A stretch of 64,000 nucleotides of DNA, taken from assembly GCA_016861245.1 (NCBI GenBank), contig BOKZ01000001.1, forward strand, positions 280,962 through 344,961. Direction: 5' to 3'. The translations under genes were made by a program, and so were the position numbers. This DNA is from Patescibacteria group bacterium. Its GTDB lineage: Bacteria > Patescibacteriota > UBA1384 > 2-12-FULL-50-11. Below, in pieces: positions 41,518-62,148 of the stretch (positions are counted from its first letter, which is position 1; each line of letters opens with the position of its first letter). The notes under the pieces were generated by a model. The model did not search any database. It had not been told where the DNA came from and worked only from the letters and a program-made list of their open reading frames with translations.

Positions 41518-41572
41518 AAATTTAAATCATGGACCGCCGAGGTCTTTACCATAAGGCAACTGCTGTTCCGTG

Positions 41573-41645
41573 TGGGGGTGCATGGATTCGAACCATGGAC
41601 CACCAAGGTATAAGCTTGGCGCTCTAACCGCTGAGCTACACCCCC
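41573..41645 (-). tRNA. tRNA with anticodon UAU (Ile, AUA-reading).
   Basis: Manual fold: acceptor GGGGGTG/CACCCCC, D-arm GCTC-AGCGGTTA-GAGC, anticodon loop CTTATAC, T-loop TTCGAAT, discriminator A; no encoded CCA. Confidence 0.7.
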
Positions 41646-44189: not shown

Positions 44190-44582
44190 ATGGTAGTAGA
44201 GAAGAGTAAAAAATTTCTGACCTACGCAGCTGTTGTCGCGCTATTCCTTTTTGCGCTTTACTCAAATATCCGATTGATCGTGCGTAACTATAACTTGCAA
44301 AAGCGAGTTGAAATTGTCCGAGCGGAAGTGAATCAAATGCAAACACGTAACGAAAAATTACGACTAATCCTCTCCTACTATCAAACACCTGCCTATCAAG
44401 AAATCGAGGCGCGTCGGCGACTGCAGGTAAAAAAACCCGAAGAAACAGTACTGACGGTGAAGGGATTAAATCTGAGCGCTGAAGAGCTTAACCTTTTAGA
44501 GGACGCGGTTTACCAAGAGCACGCCACCACAGAGGTCGAGGAGAAAACAAATTTCCAGAAATGGTGGGAGTATTTGTTTTAG
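44190..44582 (+). CDS. FtsB/DivIC-like septum formation initiator (TM plus coiled coil).
   Basis: A single N-terminal TM followed by a heptad coiled coil; size fits. Confidence 0.45.
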   Translation: MVVEKSKKFLTYAAVVALFLFALYSNIRLIVRNYNLQKRVEIVRAEVNQMQTRNEKLRLILSYYQTPAYQEIEARRRLQVKKPEETVLTVKGLNLSAEELNLLEDAVYQEHATTEVEEKTNFQKWWEYLF

Positions 44583-44656
44583 TGGCAAGGGTGGGGAACG
44601 ATCCCACGACCTCGGGCTTATGAGTCCCGCGCTCTAACCAACTGAGCTACCTTGCC
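44583..44656 (-). tRNA. tRNA-Met/Ile2 (anticodon CAU), elongator type.
   Basis: Acceptor GGCAAGG/CCTTGCC with G1-C72, D-arm GCTC-AGTTGGTTA-GAGC, anticodon loop CTCATAA. The T-loop reads ATCGTTC, which is non-canonical (A54). Confidence 0.6.
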
Positions 44657-44659
44657 AAA

Positions 44660-44719
44660 TTGTGAGGAGTGAGCGCGAGCGAAATAAGTGCTTCGCTCTC
44701 ACCACTGAGCTACACCGGC
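44660..44719 (-). repeat. Partial tRNA-like fragment (acceptor plus D-arm only) immediately upstream of tRNA-Met.
   Basis: GCCGGTGTAGCTCAGTGGTGAGAGCG followed by a non-tRNA sequence. Confidence 0.45.
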
Positions 44720-44834
44720 ATTAATTGTATTAACAGAAGAATTGTACCAATCTTCTTCGAGTAAATAAAGGTAAATCCCTTGATTTAACCGATGCTTTTC
44801 GTCATACTTTGCAGAACATTCGGAGCACTTTTAT

Positions 44835-45404
44835 ATGAGAATATTTCGTGCAAAAGAAACGATCGTCGTAGACCATCTTTCTAGCGAAAGAGTACAACTC
44901 CCCAGCGAGTGTGTAGTTTTTGAGTTTAGTCAGCCCGAATGGGCACAGCTGAACTGCGAAGACGCGACCTGGATCATCGATCGCGGCTGCGCGACCGAGT
45001 ACATCGGCTCAACGCAACTACTGCGAGTCTATGTGAGCTTTCTCACGTATAAGCGGCGATGGCTGGCGTTTAGGGAAGTTGTCTCGACGCATTTGCCGCT
45101 GCCGGCGGCTCTTGGGTTATTCTCGATGATTCGGCACCAGCCGTTCGAGTTAACTGGTAAAGCTGCGTTCGACCTGCTCTCGTTCCTGTTCGTCGATCTC
45201 TCAGGCGCAATGCGCCGTGGCGGAAAGTGGCAGTTTCGACCGGAGACAAACTATCAAGTGCGCGGAGTTCCTGAGAAATGGTGCATCGCCGTTAAAGTAC
45301 CAGACGACCTCGTCGGTCTACTGATCGGCCCAAGCGGTCGCACTATTGCTCGCGTTGAAGAGTTCACCGACTACATCAAAAACCGCATCTCATTTCGCGA
45401 CTAA
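44835..45404 (+). CDS. GC-rich hypothetical protein with a C-terminal KH domain.
   Basis: VPDDLVGLLIGPSGRTIARVEE (KH GxxG loop). GC about 57%. Terminator at 45407-45430. Confidence 0.5.
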   Translation: MRIFRAKETIVVDHLSSERVQLPSECVVFEFSQPEWAQLNCEDATWIIDRGCATEYIGSTQLLRVYVSFLTYKRRWLAFREVVSTHLPLPAALGLFSMIRHQPFELTGKAAFDLLSFLFVDLSGAMRRGGKWQFRPETNYQVRGVPEKWCIAVKVPDDLVGLLIGPSGRTIARVEEFTDYIKNRISFRD

Positions 45405-45436
45405 CCAGCCCCTTCTCGGGGCTTTTTCTTTACCTG

Positions 45437-45496
45437 TAGCGGGGGCACGATTTCGTAAGAAACGTGACCACTTGTTCTTGTAGCGGGGGCACGATT
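45437..45496. repeat. Two tandem 17-nt copies (45437-45453, 45480-45496) of the 3' end of the tRNA-Met at 50111-50181. Candidate attR of an integrated element.
   Basis: GTAGCGGGGGCACGATT occurs at 45437, 45480 and 50110 (inside the tRNA T-arm/acceptor). Confidence 0.7.
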
Positions 45497-46065
45497 TTGA
45501 GCAATAGGCTCAAAACGTTGCACGATACTCGTGCTACGCACTCGTCTTCTCGCTCACTTGTTCGCTCGCAGTCGCACGTGTTTTTCTGACGAAAAACAAC
45601 GTTCAAATCTTGCCCGTATTAAGCAAAATACCTCCAGTTGGAGGTATTTTACATAGTAGTCGGGAGTGGAAACCTCTCGAACTTTGGAACTTACTGGTTT
45701 CTAGTCTTCCCTCTCTTATTACTTGCGTGGAAGAGCTACGGAATATCGATATTATTGCCGACGAAGAAGAAGTGGTCTTGGTCCCCCTTTCCGCCCTTTA
45801 GGCGTTCTGGTAGGGTTTGCTCATAAATGGCAAGTCAAGAACCAGCTAACAACATTCCCAACCTGTCACAAACGCTTGCGGATATAGACACAAGCGGTCC
45901 ACCACCACCTGCAAATCAGGCAACAACTGAAAATGGTGAGATCGTTAATCTTAACGACAACCCGAAAAGCGTTGTAAATAAGTAATACAAGAAATTGCTC
46001 GAACTGATGATGGGTCAAAATCTACCTCTGTTAAGCATGAGAGAAAAACTGTAATATAACCACAG

Positions 46066-46800
46066 ATGGCTTCCTCAGATACCGTGGATAAAGTTAGAAA
46101 CAGCATAGCTCTTGTAATAACGCTTAACGCCCAGAATAAAGTCACTGGCAAGGGAAGTGGTTTTGTCTTTTATCGCCCCGGGCTTCTTGTGACCTGCAAT
46201 CACGTTGTTGGGAGTGATGATAACGTGAAAATAAGACTAGTTGATTCATCCGCAGATTTCATTGAAGCAAAAGTCGCCATTAGGGATGAAGAACATGATT
46301 TAGCTCTCCTTAAGTACGATGCAACGAAATCACCCGACTCTCTTCCCTTAAAACCCTTAGAGCAGTCAAAGATAATAGAGGGCATACCGGTTCTGTTCGC
46401 AGGATATCCACTGGGTTTATTTACCCTAACGACTCACCAGGGTTTGCTATCGGGTATCACTAAGGATTCAACGGGCATTACTACATACTTGATTGATGGA
46501 ACAGTAAATTCTGGAAATAGCGGATGCCCCCTTATGGACCAAGACGGTAATGTTATAGGGGTGGTTAACGCAAAGAGACGAGAGCGGAACGACCTGCTTA
46601 ATCGGGTTGAGGAGTTGCAGCTTGGGGCACTTTCGCTACACGGGATTGATTTGGTTGAATTGTACCAAGCTTTGATTAGTAACGTACAATTAGGTATGGG
46701 CTACGCAGTACCGTGCTCGTATATCCCCTCTTATAAAGAGACTGAAGAGCCTGTAGTAGCTACTCAAGCTCAGGCGAAACAAAAGAGAGAAAAGAAGTAG
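46066..46800 (+). CDS. Trypsin-like (S1/HtrA-type) serine peptidase domain protein, with no signal peptide.
   Basis: Catalytic triad contexts TCNHVV (His), DLALLK (Asp), GNSGCPL (Ser). Confidence 0.7.
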   Translation: MASSDTVDKVRNSIALVITLNAQNKVTGKGSGFVFYRPGLLVTCNHVVGSDDNVKIRLVDSSADFIEAKVAIRDEEHDLALLKYDATKSPDSLPLKPLEQSKIIEGIPVLFAGYPLGLFTLTTHQGLLSGITKDSTGITTYLIDGTVNSGNSGCPLMDQDGNVIGVVNAKRRERNDLLNRVEELQLGALSLHGIDLVELYQALISNVQLGMGYAVPCSYIPSYKETEEPVVATQAQAKQKREKK

Positions 46801-47103
46801 ATGGAAAAATATATTTTTAGATCAAACGGCCAGTATATGGGCTTTATAGTAAATAATTATCTCTTTTCTCGTGATAACGCCTACCTGGGTTGGGTTGAAG
46901 CAGATAACGTTTGGGATGCAGGAGGTAACTTCAGGGGAAAGCTAATAGAAATCACTGGTCATGCCTACATACTGAGAAGTATGTTTACTGTCAGTCCTAT
47001 CCCAAAGCCTCCGAAACCATTCCCTCGTCCCGTCCAATTGCCGACTCCACAACCTAATATCTTGCCAATAATACCGCCTATCGGTTATCAAGACGGATTC
47101 TAG
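46801..47103 (+). CDS. Hypothetical protein, translationally coupled to the protease (TAGATG overlap).
   Basis: ORF only; proline-rich C-terminus. Confidence 0.4.
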   Translation: MEKYIFRSNGQYMGFIVNNYLFSRDNAYLGWVEADNVWDAGGNFRGKLIEITGHAYILRSMFTVSPIPKPPKPFPRPVQLPTPQPNILPIIPPIGYQDGF

Positions 47104-47369
47104 TTTATAGGGCTATAGTTAGGCTTATTATTTTCGGCACTCGGTTGCCGATATTCGTCATATCTGGTAAATTTTATAGTAGTAACTTAGACAATTAGTT
47201 GGACTTAACCCGTGGGTAATACCTACGGTATGGCCATAAAAATCTCTCACAAGTAGTAAGCTCGTCGTTCAGAGCACTTGTGAGAGTCACGTCTCGAAAG
47301 GGGCGTGGGTGCTTCGGCTATCGCAGGCGGCGAGCTTTTTGCTACCCGCCAGCACCAACAAGGAGGTAA

Positions 47370-47936
47370 ATGGAAGTGGCGGAAAAGAAAATTAAGGCTG
47401 ACCAACACAGCCAGTATTGGACCTTTACGATCTTAGCGTTATTGATTCCCGTTGTCGGAATCGTTATGGGGATTATCTACTTGTCCAAACCGGACAAGCT
47501 CGATAAAAAAGTCGGCGAACACAGCATAGCGGTTAGTATCTTTGGACTGATTGCCTACGGGATATTAATCGGCGTATTGAATGCTAATGGAACCCCTATA
47601 GTGGGCGTCCCGGCCGTTACGATACCCTCAGTAACAACCCCTATTACAACTCCGGCAGTATCAGCAGCCAGTAAAATAACTTTGTCGAACAACTCCGTTA
47701 AAGAGAGTTACGGTCTTTGGCAGATAGTTGGCGAAGCAAAGAATACTGACAGTGCTGCCCATACTTTTATCATTTCTGCCACTTTCTACGGAACTGATGG
47801 CAAGATAGTTGGGACAGCTACTGGTAATGTTAATGACTTGGCGGCTGGGGACACTAAAACCTACACTTTATTGTCTTCTGACAACCTTACTGGCTACAAA
47901 GACTATAAAGTGCAAATCTCGACTATGATTCAGTAG
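47370..47936 (+). CDS. Membrane-anchored beta-sandwich (DUF4352-like) hypothetical protein.
   Basis: N-terminal TM; Thr/Pro linker; C-terminal FxxTxxG beta-domain. Confidence 0.4.
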   Translation: MEVAEKKIKADQHSQYWTFTILALLIPVVGIVMGIIYLSKPDKLDKKVGEHSIAVSIFGLIAYGILIGVLNANGTPIVGVPAVTIPSVTTPITTPAVSAASKITLSNNSVKESYGLWQIVGEAKNTDSAAHTFIISATFYGTDGKIVGTATGNVNDLAAGDTKTYTLLSSDNLTGYKDYKVQISTMIQ

Positions 47937-47971
47937 TAAATACACAAGATTTTAGAAGGACTTGCCTTAGT

Positions 47972-48418
47972 CTATTTTGCATCGAGGGAGTCTTGGTCAA
48001 TTCCTAGACTATTTTTTAGCTCCTCAATCATCCGCTGACCATGTTGTTGTTGCTCGGGGCTTGGATCGGTTGACCTAGGGAACTTGTTCTTTAATTTGAG
48101 TGCCAACGTTATTGCTTGAAGGCGGATAGAGTGGTCCGTAATCCAGTACCTAGACCCGTTCGCAATGAATAGCTTTTTAGCTTCCGTTGCCTCTTTAAGC
48201 CCCTTAACCAACTCGATGTCACTTAACCCAGACTCATCAAGTAATTCAGTTAGGTTAAGTTTGTTTAAGTTTTTTGACCCAACCACGGCAGCCGAGGCTC
48301 TATCTACGCAGTCGTAAGCAGCTACGGCGGCTTCAGTCGCGTTGCCGGTAGCTAAATAGAATTTCGCCCAAGTTTTTTGTTTGAGGGTCTTAGGTGGGTG
48401 AGCTGCTACGGAATTCAT
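47972..48418 (-). CDS. Phage terminase small subunit-like protein (Terminase_2/P27 family).
   Basis: LKQKTWAKFYLATGNATEAAVAAY matches the family N-terminal signature (L..KQ..F..EY...GNAT.AA..AGY). Confidence 0.6.
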   Translation of the reverse strand: MNSVAAHPPKTLKQKTWAKFYLATGNATEAAVAAYDCVDRASAAVVGSKNLNKLNLTELLDESGLSDIELVKGLKEATEAKKLFIANGSRYWITDHSIRLQAITLALKLKNKFPRSTDPSPEQQQHGQRMIEELKNSLGIDQDSLDAK

Positions 48419-48440
48419 TATTTGTACTAAAGCAGGTAAG

Positions 48441-50141
48441 TTGTTGGAGGAAAAGAAGATGGATACTAACTGGACTCTTGAAACTTTACGAAACTACTTT
48501 GTAGAGTCATTTGCGAGTAAGAATGAGGTCTCAAAAGAAGACTATAAATATGTAATTTATGCTCGCAAGTCAACCGACGACAAAGACAAGCAGTCCTGCT
48601 CCTTATCCGATCAGGTCAAGGAATGTAAGAAGTATGCGGCTAGTGTGGGACTAGTGGTTGTAGGTAAGCCTATAGAGGAAAAGAAATCCGCAAAAAAATC
48701 GGGACAAAGACCAAAGTTTGATGAAATATTAAACATGATCTCTACTGGTAAGATTCACGGCATTATTTCCTGGCACCCAGATCGACTTAGCAGAAATATG
48801 AAAGAAGCCGGAATAATTATTGAAATGCTGGATGAGGGGAAAATAAAAGATCTTCGTTTTGTAACTCAACAGTTTGATAACTCCGCAAGTGGAAAAATGA
48901 TGCTTGCCATCTCCTTCGCAATTAGTAAGCAATATTCAGATAACATGAGTGTAAATATTACTCGTGGGTCTAAGAACCGACTCTATGAAGGTCATGGGAT
49001 GTACCCAGTCCATGGCTACTATAAGGATGGAGATAACTTTTTAAGGCCCGATGGAGCAAATCACGATCTGTTAAGAGAAGCGTTCCAAATGAGATTAGGC
49101 GGTGAAACCCACGCAGCTATTTGCGAGTTCTTGAATACTTCCGGATATCAAAAAGCCAGAGGGATGGGTGTGGTCAAGCACATAACATTCAAATGGACAC
49201 CGGGTAAACTTTCAGAGCAGTTCTCTAATCCCATCTTTGCGGGGCTGCAACTACATGGCAAGGATGTAGTTAATCTTGTTGACCTTTACAACTTTGAACC
49301 CCTAATTACACCGGAGCAGTATGTAATGATTAGTTCGCTAGGAAAGAATCAAGGCTTTCTTAAGAAACACCGGAGCAAGAAAAAAAAGATAGCCCAATTA
49401 CTAAATGGGAAAATTCTTTGCGGATATTGTAAACGGCCGATGCATGCCAGCATGACCACAAAAAAGCCTAAAAATGGCCAAACAGAAAAGTCTCTTTATT
49501 TGTTTTACCGCTGCCCTTACGGCGATTGTCCTTTCTTTGCTGAATGGGAAAAGTTTAAGGCTAAGAAAAGACACCACCTGCATGTCAAGGCCAGAGTGAT
49601 AGTTAACTTTGCCCAAGAACAGCTGACACATTTGAAAGTAAACTCCGAAGAAACCTTCAACAGCCAAATTGCTGGATTGAAAGCCGAAGCCGCAAGCAAT
49701 ATCCAAAAACTCCAAGTCAAGAAGACAAACTTAGAGCGTCAACGTGTCAGCAAGAAGGATCATATTCTTTCGTTGCAAGAAGCGGTAAAGAATATTGATA
49801 CTAAGGTTGTCTCAGAATTCCAATCAGATTTAGATAATGAGATAAAGTCACTTACTCAAATTAAATTCGCAATCGCTGAAGTTGAGGAAGCAATTGAGAT
49901 AAGTCAGACGGCAGTACCTACATACAAGGATTTCCTCGAACTTATAGCTTCCCTACCAGTTAAATTGCAGTATGCAAAAATGCTATTAGCTAAAGATAGA
50001 ATACTAAGTTCTATATTCTCGAACTTTTATGTAACAGATAAGGGCGTGCAAGGGTTTACGCTCGCTGAACCATATGCAAGCCTACTTGTGCCTCAAAATG
50101 TTCGTTCTCGTAGCGGGGGCACGATTCGAACGTGCGCCTAG
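48441..50141 (+). CDS. Large serine recombinase (integrase).
   Basis: Resolvase catalytic domain YARKSTDDKDKQSCSLSDQ with DRLSRN. Recombinase domain, CGYCKRP/RCPYGDCP zinc ribbon and a coiled coil. Ends inside the tRNA-Met. Confidence 0.85.
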   Translation: MLEEKKMDTNWTLETLRNYFVESFASKNEVSKEDYKYVIYARKSTDDKDKQSCSLSDQVKECKKYAASVGLVVVGKPIEEKKSAKKSGQRPKFDEILNMISTGKIHGIISWHPDRLSRNMKEAGIIIEMLDEGKIKDLRFVTQQFDNSASGKMMLAISFAISKQYSDNMSVNITRGSKNRLYEGHGMYPVHGYYKDGDNFLRPDGANHDLLREAFQMRLGGETHAAICEFLNTSGYQKARGMGVVKHITFKWTPGKLSEQFSNPIFAGLQLHGKDVVNLVDLYNFEPLITPEQYVMISSLGKNQGFLKKHRSKKKKIAQLLNGKILCGYCKRPMHASMTTKKPKNGQTEKSLYLFYRCPYGDCPFFAEWEKFKAKKRHHLHVKARVIVNFAQEQLTHLKVNSEETFNSQIAGLKAEAASNIQKLQVKKTNLERQRVSKKDHILSLQEAVKNIDTKVVSEFQSDLDNEIKSLTQIKFAIAEVEEAIEISQTAVPTYKDFLELIASLPVKLQYAKMLLAKDRILSSIFSNFYVTDKGVQGFTLAEPYASLLVPQNVRSRSGGTIRTCA

Positions 50142-50181
50142 TGGTTATGAGCCACTCGAGGTACCATTCCTCCACCCCGCT
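50111..50181 (-). tRNA. tRNA-Met (anticodon CAU), the integration target.
   Basis: Similar to bacterial tRNA-fMet (AGCGGGGTGGAG...CTCATAA...TTCGAAT...CCCCGCTA), but with A1-U72 and only two GC pairs at the base of the anticodon stem, so initiator identity is uncertain. Confidence 0.7.
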
Positions 50182-50344
50182 AATTAGGCATTATAAGGCA
50201 ATCTAGGGCAAAAAACCACCCTCGGTTCGCCGATCGAGGTTCTTACGTTGATTGTCGCTCTCTATCTCGGTACAATCTGGTTATGACAAATCGTAATCAT
50301 CGAGCAGGCATCCAGAATACGCGCATAAGAAAGTTTACAAATAA

Positions 50345-52156
50345 ATGAATACACGTAATCGTTTATGGCGCCAAATTTTCTCGGCTTTAACAATTGTATT
50401 TTTAATCGCCGTTGTTTGGAGTTTATTTAGTTTTCAATCGGTAGAGAAACCTCAAGATGTCCCGATCTCTCAAATAAGTAGCGAAATCGCAGCCGGAACT
50501 GTTGAAAAAGTAGTTGTCGAGGGTAATAAAGTTACCGCTGTCAAAAAAGATAAAACGGAGCTCGTGAGCTATAAAGAGTCTAGCCAGGGCCTAAAAGATT
50601 ACGGAATTACCTCTGAGAAAGTTATTGTTGATATTAAGAACCCGGATTCCGGCGCGGTTTGGTCGACGCTAGCCTCGATCTTTCTACCGTTTCTTTTAGT
50701 TGCGGCGTTACTGTACTTTTTAACTCGCCGCGCTCAAAGCGGCAATATGCAAGCGATGTCGTTTGGTAAAACCACTGCCCGATCGTACATGGGAGAGAAG
50801 CGTGTCACGTTCGCTGATGTGGCGGGGATGAAACACGCCAAACAGGAACTGGTTGAAATAGTTGAGTTTCTAAAAAGTCCGGCCAAGTTTAAAGCGCTCG
50901 GAGCGGAGATCCCAAGAGGCGTACTACTTATCGGCCCAGCTGGCGTTGGAAAGACGCTTTTGGCGAAAGCAGTAGCCGGCGAAGCGAACGTCCCGTTTCT
51001 GTCGTTATCTGCTTCTGAATTCGTCGAGATGTTTGTCGGGGTCGGTGCGTCGCGCGTGCGCGATCTATTTACCAAAGCGAAGCGTCTTGCGCCCACGGTT
51101 ATTTTTATCGACGAACTAGACGCGGTTGGGCGACAGCGCGGTACTGGTTTGGGCGGCTCACACGACGAGCGTGAGCAAACGTTAAACCAAATTCTAGTTG
51201 AGATGGACGGATTTGATACCGACGCTAACGTAATTGTATTGGCGGCAACTAACCGTCCTGACGTTCTTGACCCAGCCCTCTTGCGACCAGGAAGATTCGA
51301 TCGAAAAGTTTCGCTCGATTTGCCGGATCGAGCCGAACGCGCAGCAATTTTAAAAATCCACGCCGCTAACAAACCGCTCGACTCAAAAGTAGATCTAGAA
51401 GAAGTCGCTAAAGGTACACCTGGTTTGTCCGGAGCAGATCTGCGCAATGTTATGAACGAGGCGGCGATACTGGCAGCACGTGACGGTAAAAAGAAAATCG
51501 ATCAGAAAGATTTGCGACACGCAATCGATAAAACGTTACTCGGTCCTGAGCGAACGAGTTACCTAATGACGGAGAGCGAACGCAAAACTGTCGCGTACCA
51601 CGAGGCCGGACATGCAATCCTCGGTCATATTCTTCCCGAGCTCGATGACGTTCACAAAGTTTCGATCGTTTCTAGGGGAATGGCCCTTGGCTATACGCTG
51701 AGTCTGCCTAACGAAGATCGCAAACTAATCCCACAGAAAAAATTTGAGCAGGAGATCGTACAGCTTCTTGGTGGACGGGCAGCCGAACAGATTATCTTTA
51801 ACACCGTAACAACTGGTGCCAGCAATGATCTTGAGCGCGCGACGGCTATTGCACGGAATATGGTAACCGTGTTTGGTATGAGCCGACTCGGACCGATTAA
51901 GGTTGGCGAGCGCGAAGAGATGGTATTTCTTGGTCGGGAGATGGGAATGCATAGGGTTCATTCGGAAAAGTTAGCGGCACTCATCGACGAAGAGATTACG
52001 AAAATTATCACCAACGCCTGGGAAACTGCCTTAAAACTTCTAAGTAAAGAGCTTAAGACTTTAAAAGTTATGGCCGAGGCGTTGCTTAAAGAAGAGACGC
52101 TCGAGGACGCTGAGCTGGCCGCCATCTTTGCTACACTAAAACCAGTACGAGGCTAA
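50345..52156 (+). CDS. ftsH: ATP-dependent zinc metalloprotease FtsH.
   Basis: N-terminal TM pair, AAA Walker A GPAGVGKT, SRH, HEAGH zinc site. Confidence 0.95.
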   Translation: MNTRNRLWRQIFSALTIVFLIAVVWSLFSFQSVEKPQDVPISQISSEIAAGTVEKVVVEGNKVTAVKKDKTELVSYKESSQGLKDYGITSEKVIVDIKNPDSGAVWSTLASIFLPFLLVAALLYFLTRRAQSGNMQAMSFGKTTARSYMGEKRVTFADVAGMKHAKQELVEIVEFLKSPAKFKALGAEIPRGVLLIGPAGVGKTLLAKAVAGEANVPFLSLSASEFVEMFVGVGASRVRDLFTKAKRLAPTVIFIDELDAVGRQRGTGLGGSHDEREQTLNQILVEMDGFDTDANVIVLAATNRPDVLDPALLRPGRFDRKVSLDLPDRAERAAILKIHAANKPLDSKVDLEEVAKGTPGLSGADLRNVMNEAAILAARDGKKKIDQKDLRHAIDKTLLGPERTSYLMTESERKTVAYHEAGHAILGHILPELDDVHKVSIVSRGMALGYTLSLPNEDRKLIPQKKFEQEIVQLLGGRAAEQIIFNTVTTGASNDLERATAIARNMVTVFGMSRLGPIKVGEREEMVFLGREMGMHRVHSEKLAALIDEEITKIITNAWETALKLLSKELKTLKVMAEALLKEETLEDAELAAIFATLKPVRG

Positions 52157-52170
52157 ACCCGAAGGAGGGG

Positions 52171-52704
52171 ATGAAAAATACGGTTTTAGAGAAATTATTC
52201 TGGGTTTCTGGTTGGACATACGATTTCACTAAGATCGCGACGATTTTTCTGATGATCGGGTTATTGAGCCATTATTTTTTCTTTTCGGTACTGATTGTCC
52301 GAGGTAAGAGTATGGAGCCGAACTACGTCGACGGCGATGTAGTTGGTGTTAACAAAATTGCTTACATCGTTTCAACACCGAAGCGCGGCGACGTTATCGC
52401 GATGTTTTTTCCCGGCGAGACTCAAAAACGTTTTATCAAACGGGTGATCGGGCTGCCCGGCGAGACGATTCGAATTGCTGATGGGCTGGTTTACGTAAAC
52501 GGCACGCTCTTAGTTGAAGGCTATCTCAGTCCAGAGCTACTCACGATCCCGAATCTCGAGCGAAAATTAGTCGAGGGAGAATACTTTGTTCTTGGAGATA
52601 ATAGAGTTGCAAGCTCAGACTCGCGTGCCTGGGGGGCGGTCCCAGAGTCGTTTATAATCGGTAAAGCGTTGGTAAATATCGCAAAGCTACCGAGTCGTCC
52701 TTAA
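52171..52704 (+). CDS. lepB: Signal peptidase I.
   Basis: SMEP(N) catalytic Ser box and the GDNR...SxDSR box. Confidence 0.8.
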   Translation: MKNTVLEKLFWVSGWTYDFTKIATIFLMIGLLSHYFFFSVLIVRGKSMEPNYVDGDVVGVNKIAYIVSTPKRGDVIAMFFPGETQKRFIKRVIGLPGETIRIADGLVYVNGTLLVEGYLSPELLTIPNLERKLVEGEYFVLGDNRVASSDSRAWGAVPESFIIGKALVNIAKLPSRP

Positions 52705-54278
52705 GAAACCAACGGTCCTCTGAGGGTCGTGATCGTTTTTGAGATCGAGTCGGTAAGCTCGGTAATGTCTTCAACAAACTGAGTAGTTGAGGACTCTTTG
52801 TACGTAATAAACCAGTCGGGCTTAATAATGGTGGTGCTCGATCGGTCAAATCGCTCGGCCCATTCCTTAGTTTTATTCAGAGCAATTGCGTAAGGGAGAT
52901 ACAACTCGAAGGTGTGGTTACGAGTACTCTCGAGCGGTAACGGTTCCTTCAGCCCTAAAAAGTTACCGAACGATATCCAGTCTCTGCGGGTTGCGATACC
53001 CGCTTCGCTGTATCGAACTAGCTTTGGCGTCAATCGAATAATCAGAAACGAGACTAGCATCGTGCCACCGAGCGGTATGCTTAAATACGGTGACGCACCG
53101 ACTATCGCCACCCAAAGCAGCCCGACGGCGCTGGTAAAGTAAAGCGCTAAACCGAAAAGTTTATACTTAACTCGGGTCAGATGTGGGTTCTCTAAGAAAA
53201 AGTTTTGTTCGGTAATGATTTGGTACACTTGTCCGAACGCGTCTCGAACTTTCGGGCTAAATAGCGAACTATCGGTGATTTCTTGCAGTCCTTCAGTTGC
53301 GAGCTTGCCATGATCTGGGAAAAGCTCTTCAAGGATATTGCGTTCCCAACTTGTTAGATGCTCATCGAACGGCTTGCGCTGGCTTAGGTAATACTGCCCG
53401 GTTCGCTCAACTATAACGATGTAGCCGCGCCGACAAAGTTCTACGAGTAACGCCACGATCACCCGGGGGTGTATCTTCTTTTGTACGAGCACACCAACCA
53501 ACATCGCTGAAAGCTGGCTCGGGGGACGGTCGAGGATCGAAGTAACTGGTACTCGGTCGAGGCGTTGACGTCTGTATAGCAGTAGTAACATCGATAGGCC
53601 AATAATTGGTAGCAGTATTCCAAGCGTCAGCCACGGTAGAACCTCTAGATTTGTTAGATATAGTCGTATCTCTTGAACCTTAGTTAGTGAAAGAACTCGT
53701 TTCGGCCAACTAGCGCTGATTGTAAACAACGATCCCGGAGCGGCGTATTCAGCACTATACACAACCGTATTATTGCTAACTGTCGTTTTAGGATTTGAGA
53801 CCCCGGAAATTGCAAATGCGTTTCCAGTTAGTCCTTCGGTCATATCTTTAGTCGGCAACGAAAAACTGACAGAGACGTTATAGATTGGATCAGGAATCTC
53901 CTGAAAAATTTTTATAAAAATTTGATCGCGATTATTGTTTCTAACTAGCGTTGTGGTCGTTGTATACGTAATTTTCCATTCTCGAGCGAGCTGCTTTGCG
54001 CGGACTACGTGGTGGTTACCAATCTTACCAACCGAGTAGCGAGAGTCGTCGATGTCGCTACCGTCGGCGCTAACAACAAGATTCCTGATATTCGAAAAAA
54101 CCTCCCATTCGAGCTGTATAGGAGTGTTGTACGTTAATTTTTGTGCAATCTGAACCGATCCGTTCTGATTTAAAACTGTTTCGATGTTGAGCTGTTGCAT
54201 CGGCGCGGCGCCACGTGCTTGCCCAGCTAGGCCCAACAGCAGTATCGCAAAGAGCGATATTTGGAAAATTCGGATCAT
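52701..54278 (-). CDS. DUF2207 family membrane protein.
   Basis: Signal peptide, an extracellular beta-rich domain, a TM, a cytoplasmic loop, then two TM helices. Confidence 0.55.
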   Translation of the reverse strand: MIRIFQISLFAILLLGLAGQARGAAPMQQLNIETVLNQNGSVQIAQKLTYNTPIQLEWEVFSNIRNLVVSADGSDIDDSRYSVGKIGNHHVVRAKQLAREWKITYTTTTTLVRNNNRDQIFIKIFQEIPDPIYNVSVSFSLPTKDMTEGLTGNAFAISGVSNPKTTVSNNTVVYSAEYAAPGSLFTISASWPKRVLSLTKVQEIRLYLTNLEVLPWLTLGILLPIIGLSMLLLLYRRQRLDRVPVTSILDRPPSQLSAMLVGVLVQKKIHPRVIVALLVELCRRGYIVIVERTGQYYLSQRKPFDEHLTSWERNILEELFPDHGKLATEGLQEITDSSLFSPKVRDAFGQVYQIITEQNFFLENPHLTRVKYKLFGLALYFTSAVGLLWVAIVGASPYLSIPLGGTMLVSFLIIRLTPKLVRYSEAGIATRRDWISFGNFLGLKEPLPLESTRNHTFELYLPYAIALNKTKEWAERFDRSSTTIIKPDWFITYKESSTTQFVEDITELTDSISKTITTLRGPLVS

Positions 54279-54323
54279 GACCTTATCGTAGCCTAGTTTC
54301 CTCGATTAGAGTACGCTAAACAC

Positions 54324-54572
54324 ATGAAACGATTTGCGGCCGCCTATCTATTTGCAATAGTTGTGGTGACGCTGCTGGCTAATCTTGTGTTTATTCTTTT
54401 GTACGGGCGGCAATTCTTTTACGACGCAGCGATACTTTGTACTGAGAATTGCAGTGGGTCAGTAAACGAGCCGAGTATTCTTCTGCCGCTTCTTGGGATA
54501 AACGCCATCGTTCTCATACTTTTTATATTCGGTTACTTTGTCGCCAGATTACTAATGAAGACGAATAAGTAG
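54324..54572 (+). CDS. Small membrane protein.
   Basis: Two TM helices. Confidence 0.35.
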   Translation: MKRFAAAYLFAIVVVTLLANLVFILLYGRQFFYDAAILCTENCSGSVNEPSILLPLLGINAIVLILFIFGYFVARLLMKTNK

Positions 54573-54620
54573 TTACGAGCATAGACCGTCGTAACTGGTT
54601 CGTGATAGTCTAAAACAAGA

Positions 54621-55172
54621 ATGAAGTATTTCTTCGGCACAATCGTGATCGCTCTGATCGCGTTTGGTTACTACTCGTTTTATTACCAGCCGCTCGCCGC
54701 GTCGTCCCCAACGGCGACTCCGGTTTTAACGCTCTCAGAGATACCTAACGACATCTGCCCGGAGAAAATATGGCTGCTAGTTGCGGCTGTTAACGACCCG
54801 AAGCCCTTAGTTGATCGGTCGGTCCCAGTTAGAGAATGCCGAACAGTACTTCTTAAGAATTATCTTCCAGCGTCGTCGGGTGAGTACGCAGTTTTCATGA
54901 AGTTACCGACGTCGCTCGCTAGCTCAGTAGTCGTGAGCACTCCCCTCACTCGATCTATCACCGTACCTATCCGTCTCGGTGATGTAACTAAGGACAACGT
55001 AATCGACGCAGCTGACGAGAAGTTGGTTACTGATGCGCTGTACTCAATCGGCGGCGTAGCCGACATCACAGGGGACGGTAAAGTTTCGGTTGATGATGTT
55101 GTGACTGTGCGCATAAATAAAGGGGTTGGCGCCGATCGACCGGACAGTAAGCCCTGGGGGAAGATCGAGTAA
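54621..55172 (+). CDS. Secreted protein with a C-terminal dockerin-like repeat.
   Basis: Signal/TM; the DVTKDNVIDAADEKLV and DITGDGKVSVDDVV Ca-binding-type repeats are dockerin-like. Confidence 0.45.
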   Translation: MKYFFGTIVIALIAFGYYSFYYQPLAASSPTATPVLTLSEIPNDICPEKIWLLVAAVNDPKPLVDRSVPVRECRTVLLKNYLPASSGEYAVFMKLPTSLASSVVVSTPLTRSITVPIRLGDVTKDNVIDAADEKLVTDALYSIGGVADITGDGKVSVDDVVTVRINKGVGADRPDSKPWGKIE

Positions 55173-56488
55173 TGAAACGAGCGCTGTCGAGTCGAGCGGT
55201 GTTTATTATTTTAAGTTTTATTACTGCAGTACTGCTCTTTGGATCGATGGTGTTACAAAACGTTTATTTTAAAGCCGACCAAGTTGATTCGTCACTCTTT
55301 ATCTCGCCGACGACGTTCTCGCGCAAACCTAACTCCAACGTCACTCTACAAGTTAAAGCCAATATTCAGGGCGCGGCAGTTATCGCTGGGGCACAGTTTT
55401 ACTTGGAGTACGATCAGTCGTTATTGGAGTTTTCTGAAACAACAACAACACCCCCATTTACTAGTTTGCAAAGCGTGGCTGACGAAGGGGTGGTGGCTTG
55501 GACGCTTCTTCCGTCTACGGAATTCGGCACGACGGTTCAGTTGAGCGGCGAGGTAACGTTTGGTTCGGTAGCGTTCAAAACAATAGCCGAGGGCCAAGCG
55601 ACAGTTCGTTTCCGTCAGAGCGACAGCAGTATTACGGCGATTGATTCGAGTCGTTCGCCGGCGCTTTATAACGCAATTGTTTCAATCCAGGACAGTAGCG
55701 GAATTATCTCTGAGCGAAACGGGGAGGCGGCGAAGCCAACCGAAACGTTAACGAAGTCTGCCGAAGTTCTCCCGACTTTCTCGGCGCAAAAGGTGCTGCG
55801 TAACGAGCCGGTTGTTTCCGATGTCGCTGCGAAGTTGCTTGTTTCGCTAAAGTACGTTGGTGGGATAAGCGTTCGCTTTGGCACGACTAGCGACTTACCA
55901 CTGACGATTGAAGCAAGCGAGCTATCGCAGCATCATCTAATCGACTTCTCAGCCCTCGAACCAGAGACGCGATATTATTACCAGCTCATAGTCTACTCCG
56001 AAGACAAAAAAACCTCTCTAAAAACACAAACGAAGAGTTTTGTCACATCTAGCGCTGGCGGTCGGATTGCTGATCAGAAGCTGACGAGCGTAGCAGTGTT
56101 GCCGGAAGTCGCTACTAAGACCGCTAAAGTTGTAATCGCCGCCCGTGACGATCAAGGGAAGGTAAGTAGCGAGCAGTTAACTGTTGTGCCAGTTTCGGGA
56201 AGCGCACAAGTTATAGAGCAGCGAGCACTTAACGGAATAACGGTCGCCACCGTTTCTTCTACTATCACAACCAATCAAAGCGTTGACTTATCTGTTCGTG
56301 CTGGCGAGCGGGAGGTTGCACAGGCGAAACTTACGTTCGATCCTTCGATCGCCGACCACACCGAGCCGATGTATAAGTTCCCAGGTCCGATTCAGATCAC
56401 GCCGAATAACGCGGCTCTACTGTTTTTGGTGGCAGCGGGGATGATTTTATTCGGCATGCTGTTTATCCGTCTGGCAAGAAGTAAATAA
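55172..56488 (+). CDS. Cell-surface protein with an N-terminal cohesin-like beta-sandwich and a C-terminal TM anchor.
   Basis: The QFYLEYDQSLLEF segment resembles the cohesin core. C-terminal TM LFLVAAGMILFGMLFI. Confidence 0.4.
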   Translation: MKRALSSRAVFIILSFITAVLLFGSMVLQNVYFKADQVDSSLFISPTTFSRKPNSNVTLQVKANIQGAAVIAGAQFYLEYDQSLLEFSETTTTPPFTSLQSVADEGVVAWTLLPSTEFGTTVQLSGEVTFGSVAFKTIAEGQATVRFRQSDSSITAIDSSRSPALYNAIVSIQDSSGIISERNGEAAKPTETLTKSAEVLPTFSAQKVLRNEPVVSDVAAKLLVSLKYVGGISVRFGTTSDLPLTIEASELSQHHLIDFSALEPETRYYYQLIVYSEDKKTSLKTQTKSFVTSSAGGRIADQKLTSVAVLPEVATKTAKVVIAARDDQGKVSSEQLTVVPVSGSAQVIEQRALNGITVATVSSTITTNQSVDLSVRAGEREVAQAKLTFDPSIADHTEPMYKFPGPIQITPNNAALLFLVAAGMILFGMLFIRLARSK

Positions 56489-58098: not shown

Positions 58099-58236
58099 AT
58101 AAATCGCGCCATGGTAGTGGCTGCGTATCGGTACTTATTTCGATTGTCATACTGGCGGCGTTAGTTGCTGGCGCCATCTATTTCTTAAAGCGCTTCGTCT
58201 AGAGTATCAGCCTCAGATCAGGTAAAATTAACAGGT

Positions 58237-59943: not shown

Positions 59944-59978
59944 TAAAAAAACCGGGCCGAAGCCCGGGTGTTGTCTGA

Positions 59979-61001: not shown

Positions 61002-61097
61002 AGTTTCCTCCGTGATGTCGTGATGTGAAAGATCAGACGTTGCAATATTTTACCGGAAAATAGGTAAAAAAAGAACCCTCCGAAGAGGGGTTTTGCG

Positions 61098-61718
61098 CTA
61101 CCAATCCAGTTTCTTGACCGGATCAACGTAGGTGCGGGCGTAGCGACGATCTGGGAATGCGTCGTCTGGAAACGGAATCGACTTAGTCTCGCACCAGAAT
61201 TCTAGAATGCCGCGATTGATTCGCTGCTTGATCGGTTCGCGTTGGTCGTATTCAACGCGACCACCTTTTTTGGCGACTACTGCCTGAATCGCTTCGACGA
61301 TACGTTGGACACTAAACGTTAACTTGTATGGAATTGTCACAGTAGCGACGAAGTTTCGCTCGAGCGCCTTATCGAAGATTACTCGATTCTCATCTCCAAG
61401 CGCAGCGGCCACGGCGGCTGGATCACCTTCAAGCTCAGAGTATCCGAGTAAGATTCGGTACGTGTGACCGTCGATGACGATCTCAACATAGCGAACACTT
61501 TCTCCTACCTCGTCCATCAAACGGTTCCGAGCATCGCGCAATTCTTCCTCGGCCTTAAGGAACTTGTCACGCTTTTTGAGAAAACGACGTGTCTTCCAGT
61601 TGAGACGTTTCTGGTCTCTTTTGGAGTTGTACGAAGGGTGATCTTCGCCGCGCTCGACCCAGAGTGTTATCGGAAAGAGCGAGAGGACGAAACTAAAATA
61701 TCGACTTGCATTTGCCAC
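61098..61718 (-). CDS. Hypothetical protein.
   Basis: ORF with a bidirectional terminator at 61071-61092. Confidence 0.4.
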   Translation of the reverse strand: MANASRYFSFVLSLFPITLWVERGEDHPSYNSKRDQKRLNWKTRRFLKKRDKFLKAEEELRDARNRLMDEVGESVRYVEIVIDGHTYRILLGYSELEGDPAAVAAALGDENRVIFDKALERNFVATVTIPYKLTFSVQRIVEAIQAVVAKKGGRVEYDQREPIKQRINRGILEFWCETKSIPFPDDAFPDRRYARTYVDPVKKLDW

Positions 61719-61745
61719 TGTTGCTTCTCCTGGTTGTAAGTTGCG

Positions 61746-62114: not shown

Positions 62115-62148
62115 TCTATCGGCAGTATACTTGTTTTATAGAGAAAAT

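What the first reader, a model, noticed from the sequence alone, without database searches (positions are those of the whole stretch)
45437..50181. Compact (~4.7 kb) integrated element at tRNA-Met: serine integrase overlapping the tRNA, TerS-like gene, cytoplasmic trypsin-like protease
A 17-nt block, GTAGCGGGGGCACGATT, from the 3' end of the tRNA-Met at 50111-50181 recurs twice in tandem at 45437 and 45480, 43 bp apart and about 4.6 kb away. The interval contains:
- a 566-aa large serine recombinase whose stop lies inside the tRNA, the classic attL architecture
- a Terminase_2-type small-subunit homologue on the opposite strand
- an S1/HtrA-like protease with no signal peptide
- three small unknown ORFs
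- a perfect 8-bp palindrome followed by a T-run at 45630-45655
- a 10-bp-stem hairpin at 47245-47287

Int plus TerS and no capsid or large terminase is the hallmark of phage-satellite (PICI-like) islands. Such a small satellite-like element in a putatively tiny-genome bacterium is unusual. The duplicated attR copy suggests repeated integration or a decayed tandem array.
Basis: partly seen in the sequence, partly recalled or inferred. Interest (0 to 1): 0.85.

Follow-up and report, generated by a model that had tools for sequence, protein, structure and literature searches.

The report
Tiny serine-integrase island at tRNA-Met
A 4.45-kb mobile DNA element, present in some strains of an ultra-small (Patescibacteria) bacterium and cleanly absent from others, sits at the very end of a tRNA-Met gene. 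It belongs to a large, apparently undescribed family of tRNA-targeting serine-integrase elements, and it also carries an orphan phage packaging gene and the orphan "LOOT" RNA.

Summary
However, its borders and the role given to the 17-nt repeats are wrong.

**True borders.** Contigs from other samples with 100%-identical flanks lack exactly 4,454 bp (window 45660-50113). The only repeat at the junctions is GTAG, the last 4 nt of the tRNA gene. Both upstream 17-mers and the hairpin with its T-run are also in the empty allele, so they are relics or host DNA.

**Integrase.**
- It is a large serine recombinase from a Patescibacteria-wide clade.
- In 59 of 78 full-length relatives the ORF stops inside a convergent tRNA gene.
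- attP lies inside the int ORF, so the circular form would encode a 598-aa protein with a conserved 48-aa tail.
- A TCGAAC motif shows the attB/attP 5-bp shift typical of these enzymes.

**TerS-like gene.** It is a true SF6-type small terminase homologue, but an orphan with no TerL nearby.

**The "hairpin".** It is part of a LOOT RNA (Rfam RF03000). LOOT recurs in 20 of 165 loci of this integrase family, always ahead of a co-directional ORF that usually encodes a membrane protein.

**Satellite lifestyle.** It is plausible but unproven: there is no replication gene, no known helper phage and no circular junction.

The parts
45436..45452 (-). Relic copy 1 of the tRNA-Met 3' end (17 nt). It lies outside the present element and next to the terminator of the 189-aa host gene.
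   Evidence: Exact match. Present in the empty-site contig L002.
45480..45496 (-). Relic copy 2 of the tRNA-Met 3' end (17 nt). It lies outside the present element.
   Evidence: Exact match. Present in the empty-site contigs L002 and L003.
45630..45652 (.). Hairpin (ACCTCC AGTT GGAGGT) followed by a T-run. In the empty allele it lies directly 3' of the tRNA, so it is host-side DNA and not part of the element.
   Evidence: Sequence. Retained in L002 and L003, where it abuts the tRNA.
45656..45659 (+). attL core, GTAG.
   Evidence: Junction deduced from occupied versus empty alleles.
45660..50113 (+). The inserted element itself: 4,454 bp, 42.8% GC.
   Evidence: L002 equals window 44621-45664 plus 50110-62156, with the right-hand flank 100% identical. 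GC content.
45660..45801 (+). Distal segment of the int ORF. In the circular (attP) form it adds a 48-aa C-terminal tail to the integrase. It also holds the P' arm of attP.
   Evidence: In-frame continuation gives 598 aa. The L134 sister element gives 596 aa. The two tails align without gaps at 33% identity, E 2e-7, with the same stop position.
45677..45682 (+). TCGAAC motif in the P' arm, at half-site positions 20-25.
   Evidence: Same position in the window and in L134. It lies 5 bp further from the core than the same motif in the tRNA arm. This is the pattern expected for the zinc-ribbon-domain motif of large serine integrases (PMC3783163).
45827..45985 (+). p52: a 52-aa acidic protein (motif IDTSxP...NGE[IV][IV]). 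It is a conserved companion of this integrase family and a candidate directionality or accessory factor.
   Evidence: 50% identical in L134. Profile hits lie immediately upstream of int in 15 or more other loci.
46066..46800 (+). Trypsin-like (HtrA/S1-type) serine protease; no N-terminal hydrophobic segment seen on reading the sequence. Cargo.
   Evidence: PF13365 81.9 bits. phrog_11383 and phrog_9683. Resembles the protease domain of PADLOC RT-Protease_XI, E 2e-21.
46801..47103 (+). Small 'beta-flower' protein abutting the protease gene (its start codon directly follows the protease stop). Cargo.
   Evidence: PF21784 Bflower, 36.3 bits. Public gene calls start it at 46837.
47202..47322 (+). 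LOOT RNA (Rfam RF03000). It lies 47 nt upstream of the FxLYD gene on the same strand.
   Evidence: 65 bits against a gathering score of 46.4. My own covariance model gives 109.8 bits. Covariation: 94.9% of cells paired and 30 of 36 pairs compensatory.
47370..47936 (+). Membrane protein with two predicted transmembrane segments and a C-terminal FxLYD domain. Cargo, downstream of LOOT.
   Evidence: NF038353 FxLYD_dom, 35 bits. Hydrophobic segments at residues 14-32 and 51-69.
47972..48418 (-). Orphan small terminase subunit (SF6/SPP1 G1P type), transcribed divergently from int.
   Evidence: - PF03592, 32.8 bits.
- 532 homologues; 43 of 44 sampled hit Terminase_2.
- In 22 viral contigs sampled the large co-directional ORF just downstream usually carries TerL domains.
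- The profile hits 3ZQP over residues 8-125.
- No TerL is present in the window.
48459..50141 (+). Large serine recombinase (integrase) as encoded in the integrated state: 560 aa, or 566 aa from the TTG at 48441. Its last 10 codons are antisense tRNA.
   Evidence: PF00239 82.9 bits and PF07508 30.4 bits. phrog_95 integrase, E 6e-60. Invariant R36-K37-S38 and four invariant Cys residues.
50110..50113 (+). attR core, GTAG. On the tRNA strand this is C71-U72-A73 plus the next base.
50110..50181 (-). tRNA-Met(CAT), the integration target (attB B' arm). Its sequence is unchanged by the insertion. TCGAAC of the T-loop lies at 50126-50131, half-site positions 15-20.
   Evidence: ARAGORN and Rfam. Motif position.

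Best explanation
**What it is.** This is a 4,454-bp site-specific integrative element (window 45660-50113). Its host is a Patescibacteria bacterium close to Berkelbacteria.

**Shown.**
- The element is present or precisely absent among strains whose flanking DNA is identical.
- The junctions share only GTAG, the last four bases of the tRNA-Met gene. The tRNA sequence is therefore preserved, and only its 3' trailer and terminator are replaced.
- The enzyme is a large serine recombinase from a Patescibacteria-wide clade. Members of that clade almost always lie tail-to-tail with a tRNA gene, with the stop codon inside it.

**Inferred from sequence.**
- The integrase recombines an attP site that lies inside the 3' end of its own gene with attB at the tRNA 3' end.
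- Its zinc-ribbon domain reads the T-loop motif TCGAAC. The motif sits at positions 15-20 in attB and 20-25 in attP, the 5-bp shift typical of these enzymes.
- Integration replaces a conserved 48-aa integrase tail with 10 residues encoded by antisense tRNA. The full 598-aa enzyme would therefore exist only in the circular form.
- The conserved 52-aa protein, which becomes int-adjacent in the circle, is the best candidate cofactor.

**Variable cargo.**
- A cytoplasmic protease plus a Bflower protein.
- A LOOT RNA leader followed by an FxLYD membrane protein.
- An orphan SF6-type small terminase.

**Transfer between cells.** The most likely route is that the small terminase directs a helper phage's large terminase to package the element, as in PICI-like satellites. 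I put this at about 0.35. It is an inference from one gene.
For: **Empty versus occupied alleles.**
- L002 and L003 are empty. L001/L005, L006 and L008 are occupied, as is the window.
- The 12-kb right-hand flank is 100% identical; the left flank is 99.8%.
- The core GTAG and both junctions were reconstructed.

**Sister element.** L134 is a Berkelbacteria MAG with the same gene order. It carries a 4,631-bp element at the same tRNA-Met, with the same GTAG junctions. Its integrase is 48% identical and its p52 is 50% identical, but its cargo differs.

**Integrase.**
- Domains and catalytic residues.
- 1,395 homologues; those that carry a source name are mostly Patescibacteria.
- The stop codon lies inside a convergent tRNA gene in 44 of 56 genome loci and 15 of 22 metagenome loci.
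- The TCGAAC motif shows the 5-bp shift in both elements. This matches the attB/attP model of Rutherford et al. 2013 (PMC3783163).
- The circular-form ORFs are 598 and 596 aa, with tails that align without gaps.

**p52.** Profile hits lie next to int in many loci.

**Small terminase.**. No TerL was found in the window or in the 164 related loci.

**LOOT RNA.**

**Composition.** GC is 42.8% in the element against 48% in the flanks.

**Host.** LepA relatives and gene order shared with L134.
Against: - No circular (attP) junction was found in any fetched contig or in JGI metagenomes. Excision is therefore inferred only from the polymorphism.
- The crossover dinucleotide within GTAG is not resolved.
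- Only the P'/B' arms show a shared motif; the other two arms do not.
- The conserved tail could partly reflect DNA-level constraint on the P' arm. The LEL residues are encoded by the TCGAAC motif itself.

**Against the satellite step.**
- No replication gene, origin or repressor was recognised.
- TerS occurs in only 2 of 165 loci of this integrase family.
- No helper phage is known, and neither the element nor its TerS matches any GenBank phage.
- A 4.45-kb circle with no replicon is a poor substrate for headful packaging.
Confidence: 0.75

Rival explanations
1. **Cargo shuttle or defence islet, not a satellite.** The element only integrates and excises, and spreads by transformation or generalised transduction. 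The orphan TerS is cargo. It might act as a decoy that sabotages the terminase of an infecting phage, or as a DNA-binding regulator or directionality factor for the integrase. The protease-Bflower pair and the LOOT-FxLYD unit would be further defence or surface cargo.
For: - Cargo is highly variable across the family and often looks defence-related: Mrr nuclease, membrane-anchored SNase, TIR plus caspase.
- The protease resembles protease domains fused to defence proteins.
- TerS is present in only 2 of 165 family loci and absent from the sister element at the same site.
- No replication module was found.
- Directionality factors of serine integrases are known to be recruited from unrelated proteins (PMC11795197).
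Against: - The protein is a full-length TerS with both a DNA-binding and an oligomerisation domain. The model is confident (pLDDT 90), and its viral homologues sit next to TerL.
- An orphan terS on a small integrative island is the accepted signature of PICI-type and PICI-like tycheposon elements (10.1101/2020.12.28.424599).
- No experiment or comparison here speaks for a decoy or regulator role.
Confidence: 0.3
2. **Decayed prophage remnant.** The integrase and TerS are what is left of a once complete temperate phage. The element is no longer mobile.
For: The element has an integrase, one packaging gene and phage-related protease families. Relic tRNA fragments next door show that decay does happen at this locus.
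Against: - The element is precisely absent from strains whose right-hand 12-kb flank is 100% identical. The insertion or excision is therefore very recent.
- All ORFs are intact.
- A sister element of nearly the same size (4,631 bp) occupies the same site in another genome with different cargo. Small size is thus a family trait.
- The int ORF closes neatly across the reconstructed attP in both elements.
Confidence: 0.03
3. **The first reader's anatomy.** The element is 4.7 kb, bounded by the 17-nt direct repeats at 45437/45480 and 50110, with a duplicated attR.
For: The three exact 17-mers are real and non-random.
Against: Both upstream 17-mers, the 159 bp after them and the hairpin are all retained in the empty alleles L002 and L003. 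The deletion endpoints are at GTAG, 45656-45659 and 50110-50113.
Confidence: 0.01

Closest known systems
Tycheposons of Prochlorococcus (Hackl et al.; 10.1101/2020.12.28.424599)
   Same: - Small integrative elements of a genome-streamlined bacterium that target tRNA genes.
- They leave partial tRNA copies behind.
- They form one family linked by the integrase.
- They split into cargo shuttles and PICI-like members that carry terS.
   Different: - 910 of the 937 tycheposons and cryptic elements use tyrosine recombinases, many carry replication genes, and they are 10-20 kb.
- This element uses a large serine recombinase, has no recognisable replication gene, is 4.45 kb, and lives in Patescibacteria.
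- Shared hallmark genes were not tested.
PICIs / SaPIs (phage-inducible chromosomal islands)
   Same: Integrase plus an island-encoded small terminase, with no capsid, large terminase or lysis genes. Site-specific chromosomal integration.
   Different: PICIs are about 10-15 kb. They carry a replication module and a phage-responsive repressor, and are demonstrably induced and packaged by helpers. None of this is present or shown here.
PICMIs (Vibrionaceae minimalist satellites; PMC10803314)
   Same: Very small satellite-type islands of about 6.1 kb with minimal gene content. They are packaged as concatemers and do not remodel capsids.
   Different: The PICMI core is int, alpA and primase, integrated next to fis, with no terS. 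This element has no alpA or primase, has terS, and targets a tRNA. It would be smaller than the smallest characterised PICMI.
PLEs of Vibrio cholerae
   Same: Phage satellites that use a large serine recombinase. Their directionality factor comes from the helper phage (PMC11795197).
   Different: From my own knowledge, PLEs are about 18 kb with replication and interference genes, and are restricted to V. cholerae and phage ICP1. No sequence relationship was tested or seen.
A118/Listeria-type large serine integrases (structural paradigm; PMC3783163)
   Same: Domain set, short crossover core, and the same DNA motif placed 5 bp closer to the core in attB than in attP.
   Different: Known model integrases target protein-coding or intergenic sites and have attP outside the int ORF (from memory). 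This clade targets tRNA 3' ends, which Mageeney et al. 2020 found rare for serine integrases and not previously reported (4.9%, against 44.5% for tyrosine integrases; PMC7192596).
SSV1-type archaeal integrases (from my own knowledge)
   Same: attP lies inside the integrase gene, so integration alters the int ORF.
   Different: These are tyrosine recombinases in archaeal viruses, and their gene is split into two large parts. Here only the last 48 codons are exchanged, and the enzyme is a serine recombinase.
LOOT RNA, Rfam RF03000 (Weinberg et al. 2017 motif set; PMC5737381, PMC7779021)
   Same: The 47202-47322 RNA and 19 further copies match the family model and its helices.
   Different: Rfam files it as a metagenome-derived sRNA, with no function given in the texts I could read. 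Here it is consistently the 5' leader of a co-directional, mostly membrane-protein gene on serine-integrase elements.

Membership tests
Large serine recombinase (LSR) integrative element | N-terminal resolvase-type catalytic domain with the nucleophilic serine | tested here: met
   PF00239 scores 82.9 bits against a cut-off of 23.3. R36-K37-S38 are invariant in the 23-sequence alignment.
Large serine recombinase (LSR) integrative element | C-terminal recombinase domain plus zinc-ribbon domain | tested here: met
   PF07508 scores 30.4 bits against a cut-off of 21.1. Zn_ribbon_recom scores only 17.9 against 25.3, but C321, C324, C352 and C357 are invariant. The coiled coil was not examined.
Large serine recombinase (LSR) integrative element | Element bounded by attL and attR, with a precise empty attB in relatives | tested here: met
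   L002 and L003 are empty; L001, L006, L008 and the window are occupied. The right-hand flank is 100% identical.
Large serine recombinase (LSR) integrative element | Very short identity at the crossover (a central dinucleotide), not a long repeat | tested here: met
   Only GTAG is shared by attL and attR. Which dinucleotide is cut is not resolved.
Large serine recombinase (LSR) integrative element | Zinc-ribbon-domain DNA motif 5 bp closer to the core in attB than in attP | tested here: met
   TCGAAC lies at half-site positions 15-20 in B' and 20-25 in P', in both the window and L134. The model is from PMC3783163. No such motif pair was seen in the P and B arms.
Large serine recombinase (LSR) integrative element | A recombination directionality factor for excision | not testable with these tools
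   The candidates are the conserved 52-aa protein, the TerS-like protein, or the 48-aa integrase tail. None was tested.
PICI-type phage satellite | Own integrase and specific chromosomal att site | tested here: met
PICI-type phage satellite | Packaging-redirection gene (small terminase, or a capsid or cos module) | tested here: met
   Homology only. Terminase_2 is above its cut-off. The family lies next to TerL in viral contigs. It matches the SF6 G1P DNA-binding and oligomerisation domains. Function was not tested.
PICI-type phage satellite | Replication module (primase or initiator plus origin) | tested here: not met
   None of the six other ORFs hits a replication family in Pfam, PHROGs or NCBIfam.
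PICI-type phage satellite | Phage-responsive master repressor or regulator | tested here: not met
   No repressor-type HTH protein was found in the element. The sister element L134 does carry an HTH_3 gene.
PICI-type phage satellite | Induction by, and packaging into particles of, a helper phage | not testable with these tools
   No helper is known. No attP junction was found in JGI metagenomes, and no match was found in GenBank phages.
PICI-type phage satellite | No virion structural or lysis genes | tested here: met
   No TerL was found in the window.
PICMI | Core genes int, alpA and primase; integration next to fis | tested here: not met
   The definition is from PMC10803314. There is no alpA or primase hit, and the target is a tRNA.
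Tycheposon-like elements | tRNA-gene targeting, with partial tRNA copies accumulating at the site | tested here: met
   The integration point is at the tRNA 3' end. Two relic 3' fragments lie nearby.
Tycheposon-like elements | Shared tycheposon hallmark genes (their tyrosine recombinase clade and replication genes) | tested here: not met
   The integrase is a serine recombinase and no replication genes were found. This is analogy, not membership.
LOOT RNA (RF03000) | Covariance-model score at or above Rfam's gathering score | tested here: met
   65.0 bits against 46.4, covering the full model length 1-121.
LOOT RNA (RF03000) | Helices supported by compensatory changes | tested here: met
   Across 14 copies, 94.9% of cells are paired and 30 of 36 pairs are compensatory. 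Slid controls give about 35%. The alignment was fitted to the model, which favours it.
SF6/SPP1-type small terminase (Terminase_2) | N-terminal HTH DNA-binding domain plus central oligomerisation domain | tested here: met
SF6/SPP1-type small terminase (Terminase_2) | Encoded next to a large terminase | tested here: not met
   The gene is convergent with the FxLYD gene and divergent from int. No TerL profile hit was found anywhere in the 64-kb window.

The most novel reading that the evidence does not exclude
These Patescibacteria mini-elements would be a new class of minimal mobile element with three linked properties.
- The serine-integrase gene spans attP, so that integration and excision switch the enzyme between a full-length 598-aa form and a tail-less form. 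This would be a built-in control of directionality, possibly working with the 52-aa partner protein.
- The terS-bearing member in this window would be a phage satellite of an ultra-small bacterium, smaller than any characterised satellite.
- LOOT would be the riboregulator of the element's surface-protein cargo.
Probability: 0.2. Interest if true: 0.8.

Novelty: new variant of a known kind. Interest (0 to 1): 0.6.

Why it matters
**tRNA targeting by serine integrases.** Targeting of tRNA genes has been regarded as a hallmark of tyrosine integrases. The one large survey I could read called its use by serine integrases unreported and in need of proof. Here a whole clade does it, with one case pinned down to the base by occupied and empty alleles.

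**A possible genetic tool.** The work yields a defined attB/attP pair and integrase for Patescibacteria, a group with almost no genetic tools.

**Context for an orphan RNA.** LOOT gains its first genomic context: it is a leader of membrane-protein genes on these elements.

**A testable question.** The orphan small terminase on a 4.45-kb island raises the question of whether ultra-small episymbiotic bacteria host phage satellites.

**A testable mechanism.** The int-spanning attP suggests a simple way for the integration state to change the enzyme.

Tried and rejected
- **Exact look-up of the 566-aa TTG-start integrase.** Nothing was on record; the 560-aa ATG form is.
- **Contig L007.** At 4,442 bp it looked like a possible excised circle. 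It is simply window 45698-50139, with no terminal overlap, and it ends in the tRNA.
- **Circular contigs.** None of the short contigs checked (L135-L137) and none of the 80 metagenome loci has a terminal overlap.
- **attP junction.** The 29-mer was absent from JGI metagenomes.
- **Viral-contig scan with the single integrase.** No hit.
- **Word-based search with TerS.** It found only 3 proteins. The exhaustive search was needed.
- **The 137-aa HTH_23 proteins recurring in three related elements.** They are not TerS-like (hhalign probability 0.2).
- **Cargo proteins of the window.** They are not shared with 80 related loci, apart from a TerS in L037.
- **Promoter and terminator scans.** Counts were at chance level.
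- **Dyad symmetry in attB and attP.** Only the host terminator hairpin showed up. That run also used a junction coordinate off by one, corrected.
- **GenBank phages.** No DNA match for the element and no tblastn match for TerS.
- **Similarity between the relic flanks and the element's int-proximal end.** By eye it is only a pyrimidine-rich resemblance, so it is not used as evidence.
- **Supplementary text of the paper that introduced LOOT.** It is not held.

Full report
**1.

The 17-mer GTAGCGGGGGCACGATT occurs exactly three times in the window: at 45436, 45480 and 50110. None of 100 shuffles reached three matches. The copy at 50110 is the 3' end of a minus-strand tRNA-Met(CAT) at 50110/50111-50181.

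- a large serine recombinase, 48441/48459-50141, with its stop codon 32 nt inside the tRNA gene;
- a Terminase_2 homologue on the other strand, 47972-48418;
- a trypsin-like protease with no N-terminal hydrophobic segment visible in its sequence, 46066-46800;
- three small ORFs.

The small ORFs can now be named in part. ORF 46801-47103 is a Pfam 'Bflower' protein. ORF 47370-47936 is a two-pass membrane protein with an FxLYD domain. ORF 45827-45985 has no family.

**2. The borders are different from those proposed.**

An exact look-up of the neighbouring FtsH protein returned contigs from other samples. In L002 and L003 the 189-aa host gene and ftsH lie 486 bp apart instead of 4.9 kb.

BLAST shows that L002 equals window 44621-45664 joined to 50110-62156. 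The right-hand 12 kb is 100% identical and the left flank is 99.8%.

Both upstream 17-mers, the 159 bp that follow them, and the hairpin with its T-run are all retained in the empty allele. There the hairpin abuts the tRNA directly: …GGAGGTATTTTACATA-GTAG-CGGGGGCACGATTCGAAC….

The inserted DNA is therefore 45660-50113, 4,454 bp, flanked only by GTAG at 45656-45659 and 50110-50113. On the tRNA strand these four bases are C71-U72-A73 plus the next base. The tRNA sequence is thus untouched, and only its trailer and terminator change.

Four further contigs carry the element (L001/L005, L006, L007, L008). Its GC content is 42.8%, against about 48% in the flanks.

The two upstream 17-mers are older relics of the tRNA 3' end. 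How they arose is not settled.

**3. The host and a sister element.**

LepA relatives with a source name are Patescibacteria, including Berkelbacteria.

A Berkelbacteria MAG contig (L134, GCA_024654065.1) has the same gene order: YkuD, Ddl, LTD, DivIC, tRNA-Met, an element, tRNA-Met, FtsH, signal peptidase. Its element at the same tRNA-Met is 4,631 bp and has the same GTAG junctions. Its integrase is 48% identical and its first small protein is 50% identical, but all other genes differ and it has no TerS.

Small size is therefore a property of the family and not a product of decay.

**4. The integrase family targets tRNA genes.**

The integrase has the resolvase and recombinase domains, an invariant R-K-S catalytic motif and four invariant cysteines. 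It has 1,395 detected homologues; those that carry a source name are mostly Patescibacteria.

In 44 of 56 genome loci and 15 of 22 metagenome loci with a full-length relative, the ORF's stop codon lies inside a convergent tRNA gene. The tRNAs include Pro, Met, Lys, Leu, Gly, Glu, His, Val, Asp, Ala and Ser.

Mageeney et al. 2020 found tRNA use by 44.5% of tyrosine-integrase elements but only 4.9% of serine-integrase elements. They wrote that it had not been reported before and needed proof (PMC7192596). The papers I could search on Patescibacteria gene exchange do not mention this.

**5. Anatomy of the att sites.**

I reconstructed attP by joining the two element ends. This gives …GTTCGTTCTC-GTAG-TCGGGAGTGGAAACCTCTCGAACTTTGG….

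I counted half-site positions from the middle of GTAG. The T-loop motif TCGAAC lies at positions 15-20 in the tRNA arm of attB. The same motif lies at positions 20-25 in the corresponding arm of attP. This holds in both the window and L134.

A 5-bp inward shift of the zinc-ribbon-domain motif in attB relative to attP is the rule that Rutherford et al. established for large serine integrases (PMC3783163). The other two arms show no such pair, and no strong dyad symmetry was found.

The int reading frame continues across the reconstructed attP. The circular form would encode 598 aa in the window and 596 aa in L134. The two 48-aa tails align without gaps at 33% identity (E 2e-7) and end at the same position.

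Integration therefore replaces this tail with RSGGTIRTCA, which is encoded by antisense tRNA. Part of the tail's conservation (the LEL residues) is the TCGAAC motif itself. Protein-level constraint is thus likely but not proven.

**6. A conserved small partner protein.**

The 52-aa acidic protein (IDTSxP…NGE[IV][IV]) is the only gene besides int shared with L134. A profile built from it finds similar small ORFs immediately upstream of int in 15 or more other loci that target several different tRNAs.

In the window it lies at the far end of the integrated element. In the circle it would follow int directly. It is the best candidate for an integrase cofactor or directionality factor. This is an inference.

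**7. The small terminase.**

An exhaustive search found 532 homologues of 130-200 aa, aligned over residues 10 to about 117. Of 44 sampled, 43 hit Terminase_2.

In 22 viral contigs sampled, the large co-directional ORF just downstream usually carries large-terminase domains. The per-family counts are 15 for Terminase_6N and 11 for Terminase_3, and these overlap.

The gene is therefore a real terS. However, it is an orphan:
- there is no large terminase anywhere in the window;
- only one other locus of the 164 related integrase loci has a terS, and none has a TerL within the DNA fetched;
- there is no match in GenBank phages.

**8. The 'hairpin' is LOOT RNA.**

Rfam places a LOOT RNA (RF03000) at 47202-47322, scoring 65 bits against a gathering score of 46.4.

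Using Rfam and a covariance model built here, I found 20 copies in 165 loci of this integrase family. None was found in ten viral terS loci.

Covariation is strong. In 14 copies, 94.9% of cells are paired and 30 of 36 pairs have compensatory changes. Slid controls give about 35%. The alignment was fitted to the model, which favours it.

All 20 copies are followed within 140 nt by a co-directional ORF. In 17 of these the ORF has a hydrophobic segment in its first 110 residues, by a crude Kyte-Doolittle test. Examples are FxLYD here, DUF4352 in L012 and L136, and a membrane-anchored SNase in L029.

Several copies lie divergently within 40-600 nt of int. This pattern fits a 5' leader of a membrane-protein cargo gene better than a free-standing sRNA. 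The papers I could read give LOOT no function.

**9. How it most likely works.**

*Shown:*
- a recently mobile, site-specific insertion at the tRNA-Met 3' end;
- the enzyme family;
- the att sequences.

*Inferred from sequence:*
- recognition of the T-loop motif;
- attP lying inside int;
- the tail exchange;
- p52 as a cofactor.

*Inferred from one gene:* dissemination by hijacking a helper phage's large terminase and capsids, as in PICIs and the terS-bearing 'PICI-like' tycheposons.

Against that last step are the lack of any replication gene, repressor, helper phage or circular junction, and the rarity of terS in the family.

The main rival is a cargo or defence shuttle in which terS is itself cargo, acting as a decoy or regulator. 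Relatives carry an Mrr nuclease, a TIR domain plus a caspase, and nucleases. The protease resembles protease domains of defence proteins.

A decayed prophage is very unlikely, given the identical flanks, intact ORFs and the sister element.

**10. Comparison and novelty.**

By function and architecture the closest analogues are:
- tycheposons, which are tRNA-targeting, leave partial tRNA relics, and have cargo and terS subtypes, but use tyrosine recombinases, are larger and carry replication genes;
- PICIs;
- PICMIs, which are 6.1 kb with a core of int, alpA and primase and no terS;
- PLEs, which are satellites with a serine integrase whose directionality factor comes from the helper.

The element fails defining features of PICIs (replication module, repressor, size) and of PICMIs. 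It should not be filed as a member of either.

It is a new variant of a known kind, the serine-integrase integrative element. Four features distinguish it:
- clade-wide tRNA targeting;
- attP inside the int ORF;
- the association with LOOT;
- a size below that of any characterised satellite.

Noticed in passing
window 36270-36540 (-), with flanks about 36150-36850: A group I intron (Rfam, 69.9 bits) sits inside what looks like a tRNA gene that ARAGORN missed. The 3' exon reads GTCGGTTCGAATCCGACCTCCAGAGCCA. An HNH-type endonuclease-like ORF lies just upstream on the same strand. This fits the recent report of group I introns in Patescibacteria tRNA genes (PMC13011429).
   Followed up: partly
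window 41572-41645 (-); L134 1853-1926: A tRNA-Ile with anticodon TAT, conserved at the same position in the Berkelbacteria MAG. From my own knowledge this anticodon is uncommon in bacteria, and it bears on how AUA is decoded in this lineage.
   Followed up: no
window about 44657-44722 (-): A degenerate 5' half of a tRNA (GCCGGTGTAGCTCAGTGGTGAGAGC…) lies directly upstream of tRNA-Met 44582-44656. Its counterpart in L134 (4877-4950) is an intact tRNA-Met.
   Followed up: partly
L134 10497-12932: The FtsH gene of the related Berkelbacteria MAG carries an intein (Intein_splicing, with a faint LAGLIDADG hit). The window's FtsH lacks it.
   Followed up: no
L037 6700-12700: This is the only other integrase-family locus with a terS homologue (7083-7481). 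It holds two partial integrase ORFs (7938-9032 and 11450-12652), the second ending in tRNA-Leu. It may be a nested or tandem arrangement of two elements.
   Followed up: partly
L016 6580-7934; L035 2192-3789; L029 6416-7861: Related serine-integrase elements carry defence-like cargo:
- a ThsB-like TIR protein next to a caspase-family protease (L016);
- a zinc-ribbon protein plus an Mrr nuclease (L035);
- a membrane-anchored SNase plus an HTH_17 protein (L029).
   Followed up: partly
window 36407-36847 (-): The ORF in the intron region gives a weak hit (E 4.5e-4) to the integrase-family profile. It is probably only a shared cysteine-rich segment.
   Followed up: no
L004 (SRR7904081), start of contig: A 98.3%-identical strain's contig begins exactly at the GTAG of the tRNA (window 50110). 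This suggests that assembly graphs branch at this junction in that sample, so both alleles, or a third form, may coexist there.
   Followed up: no
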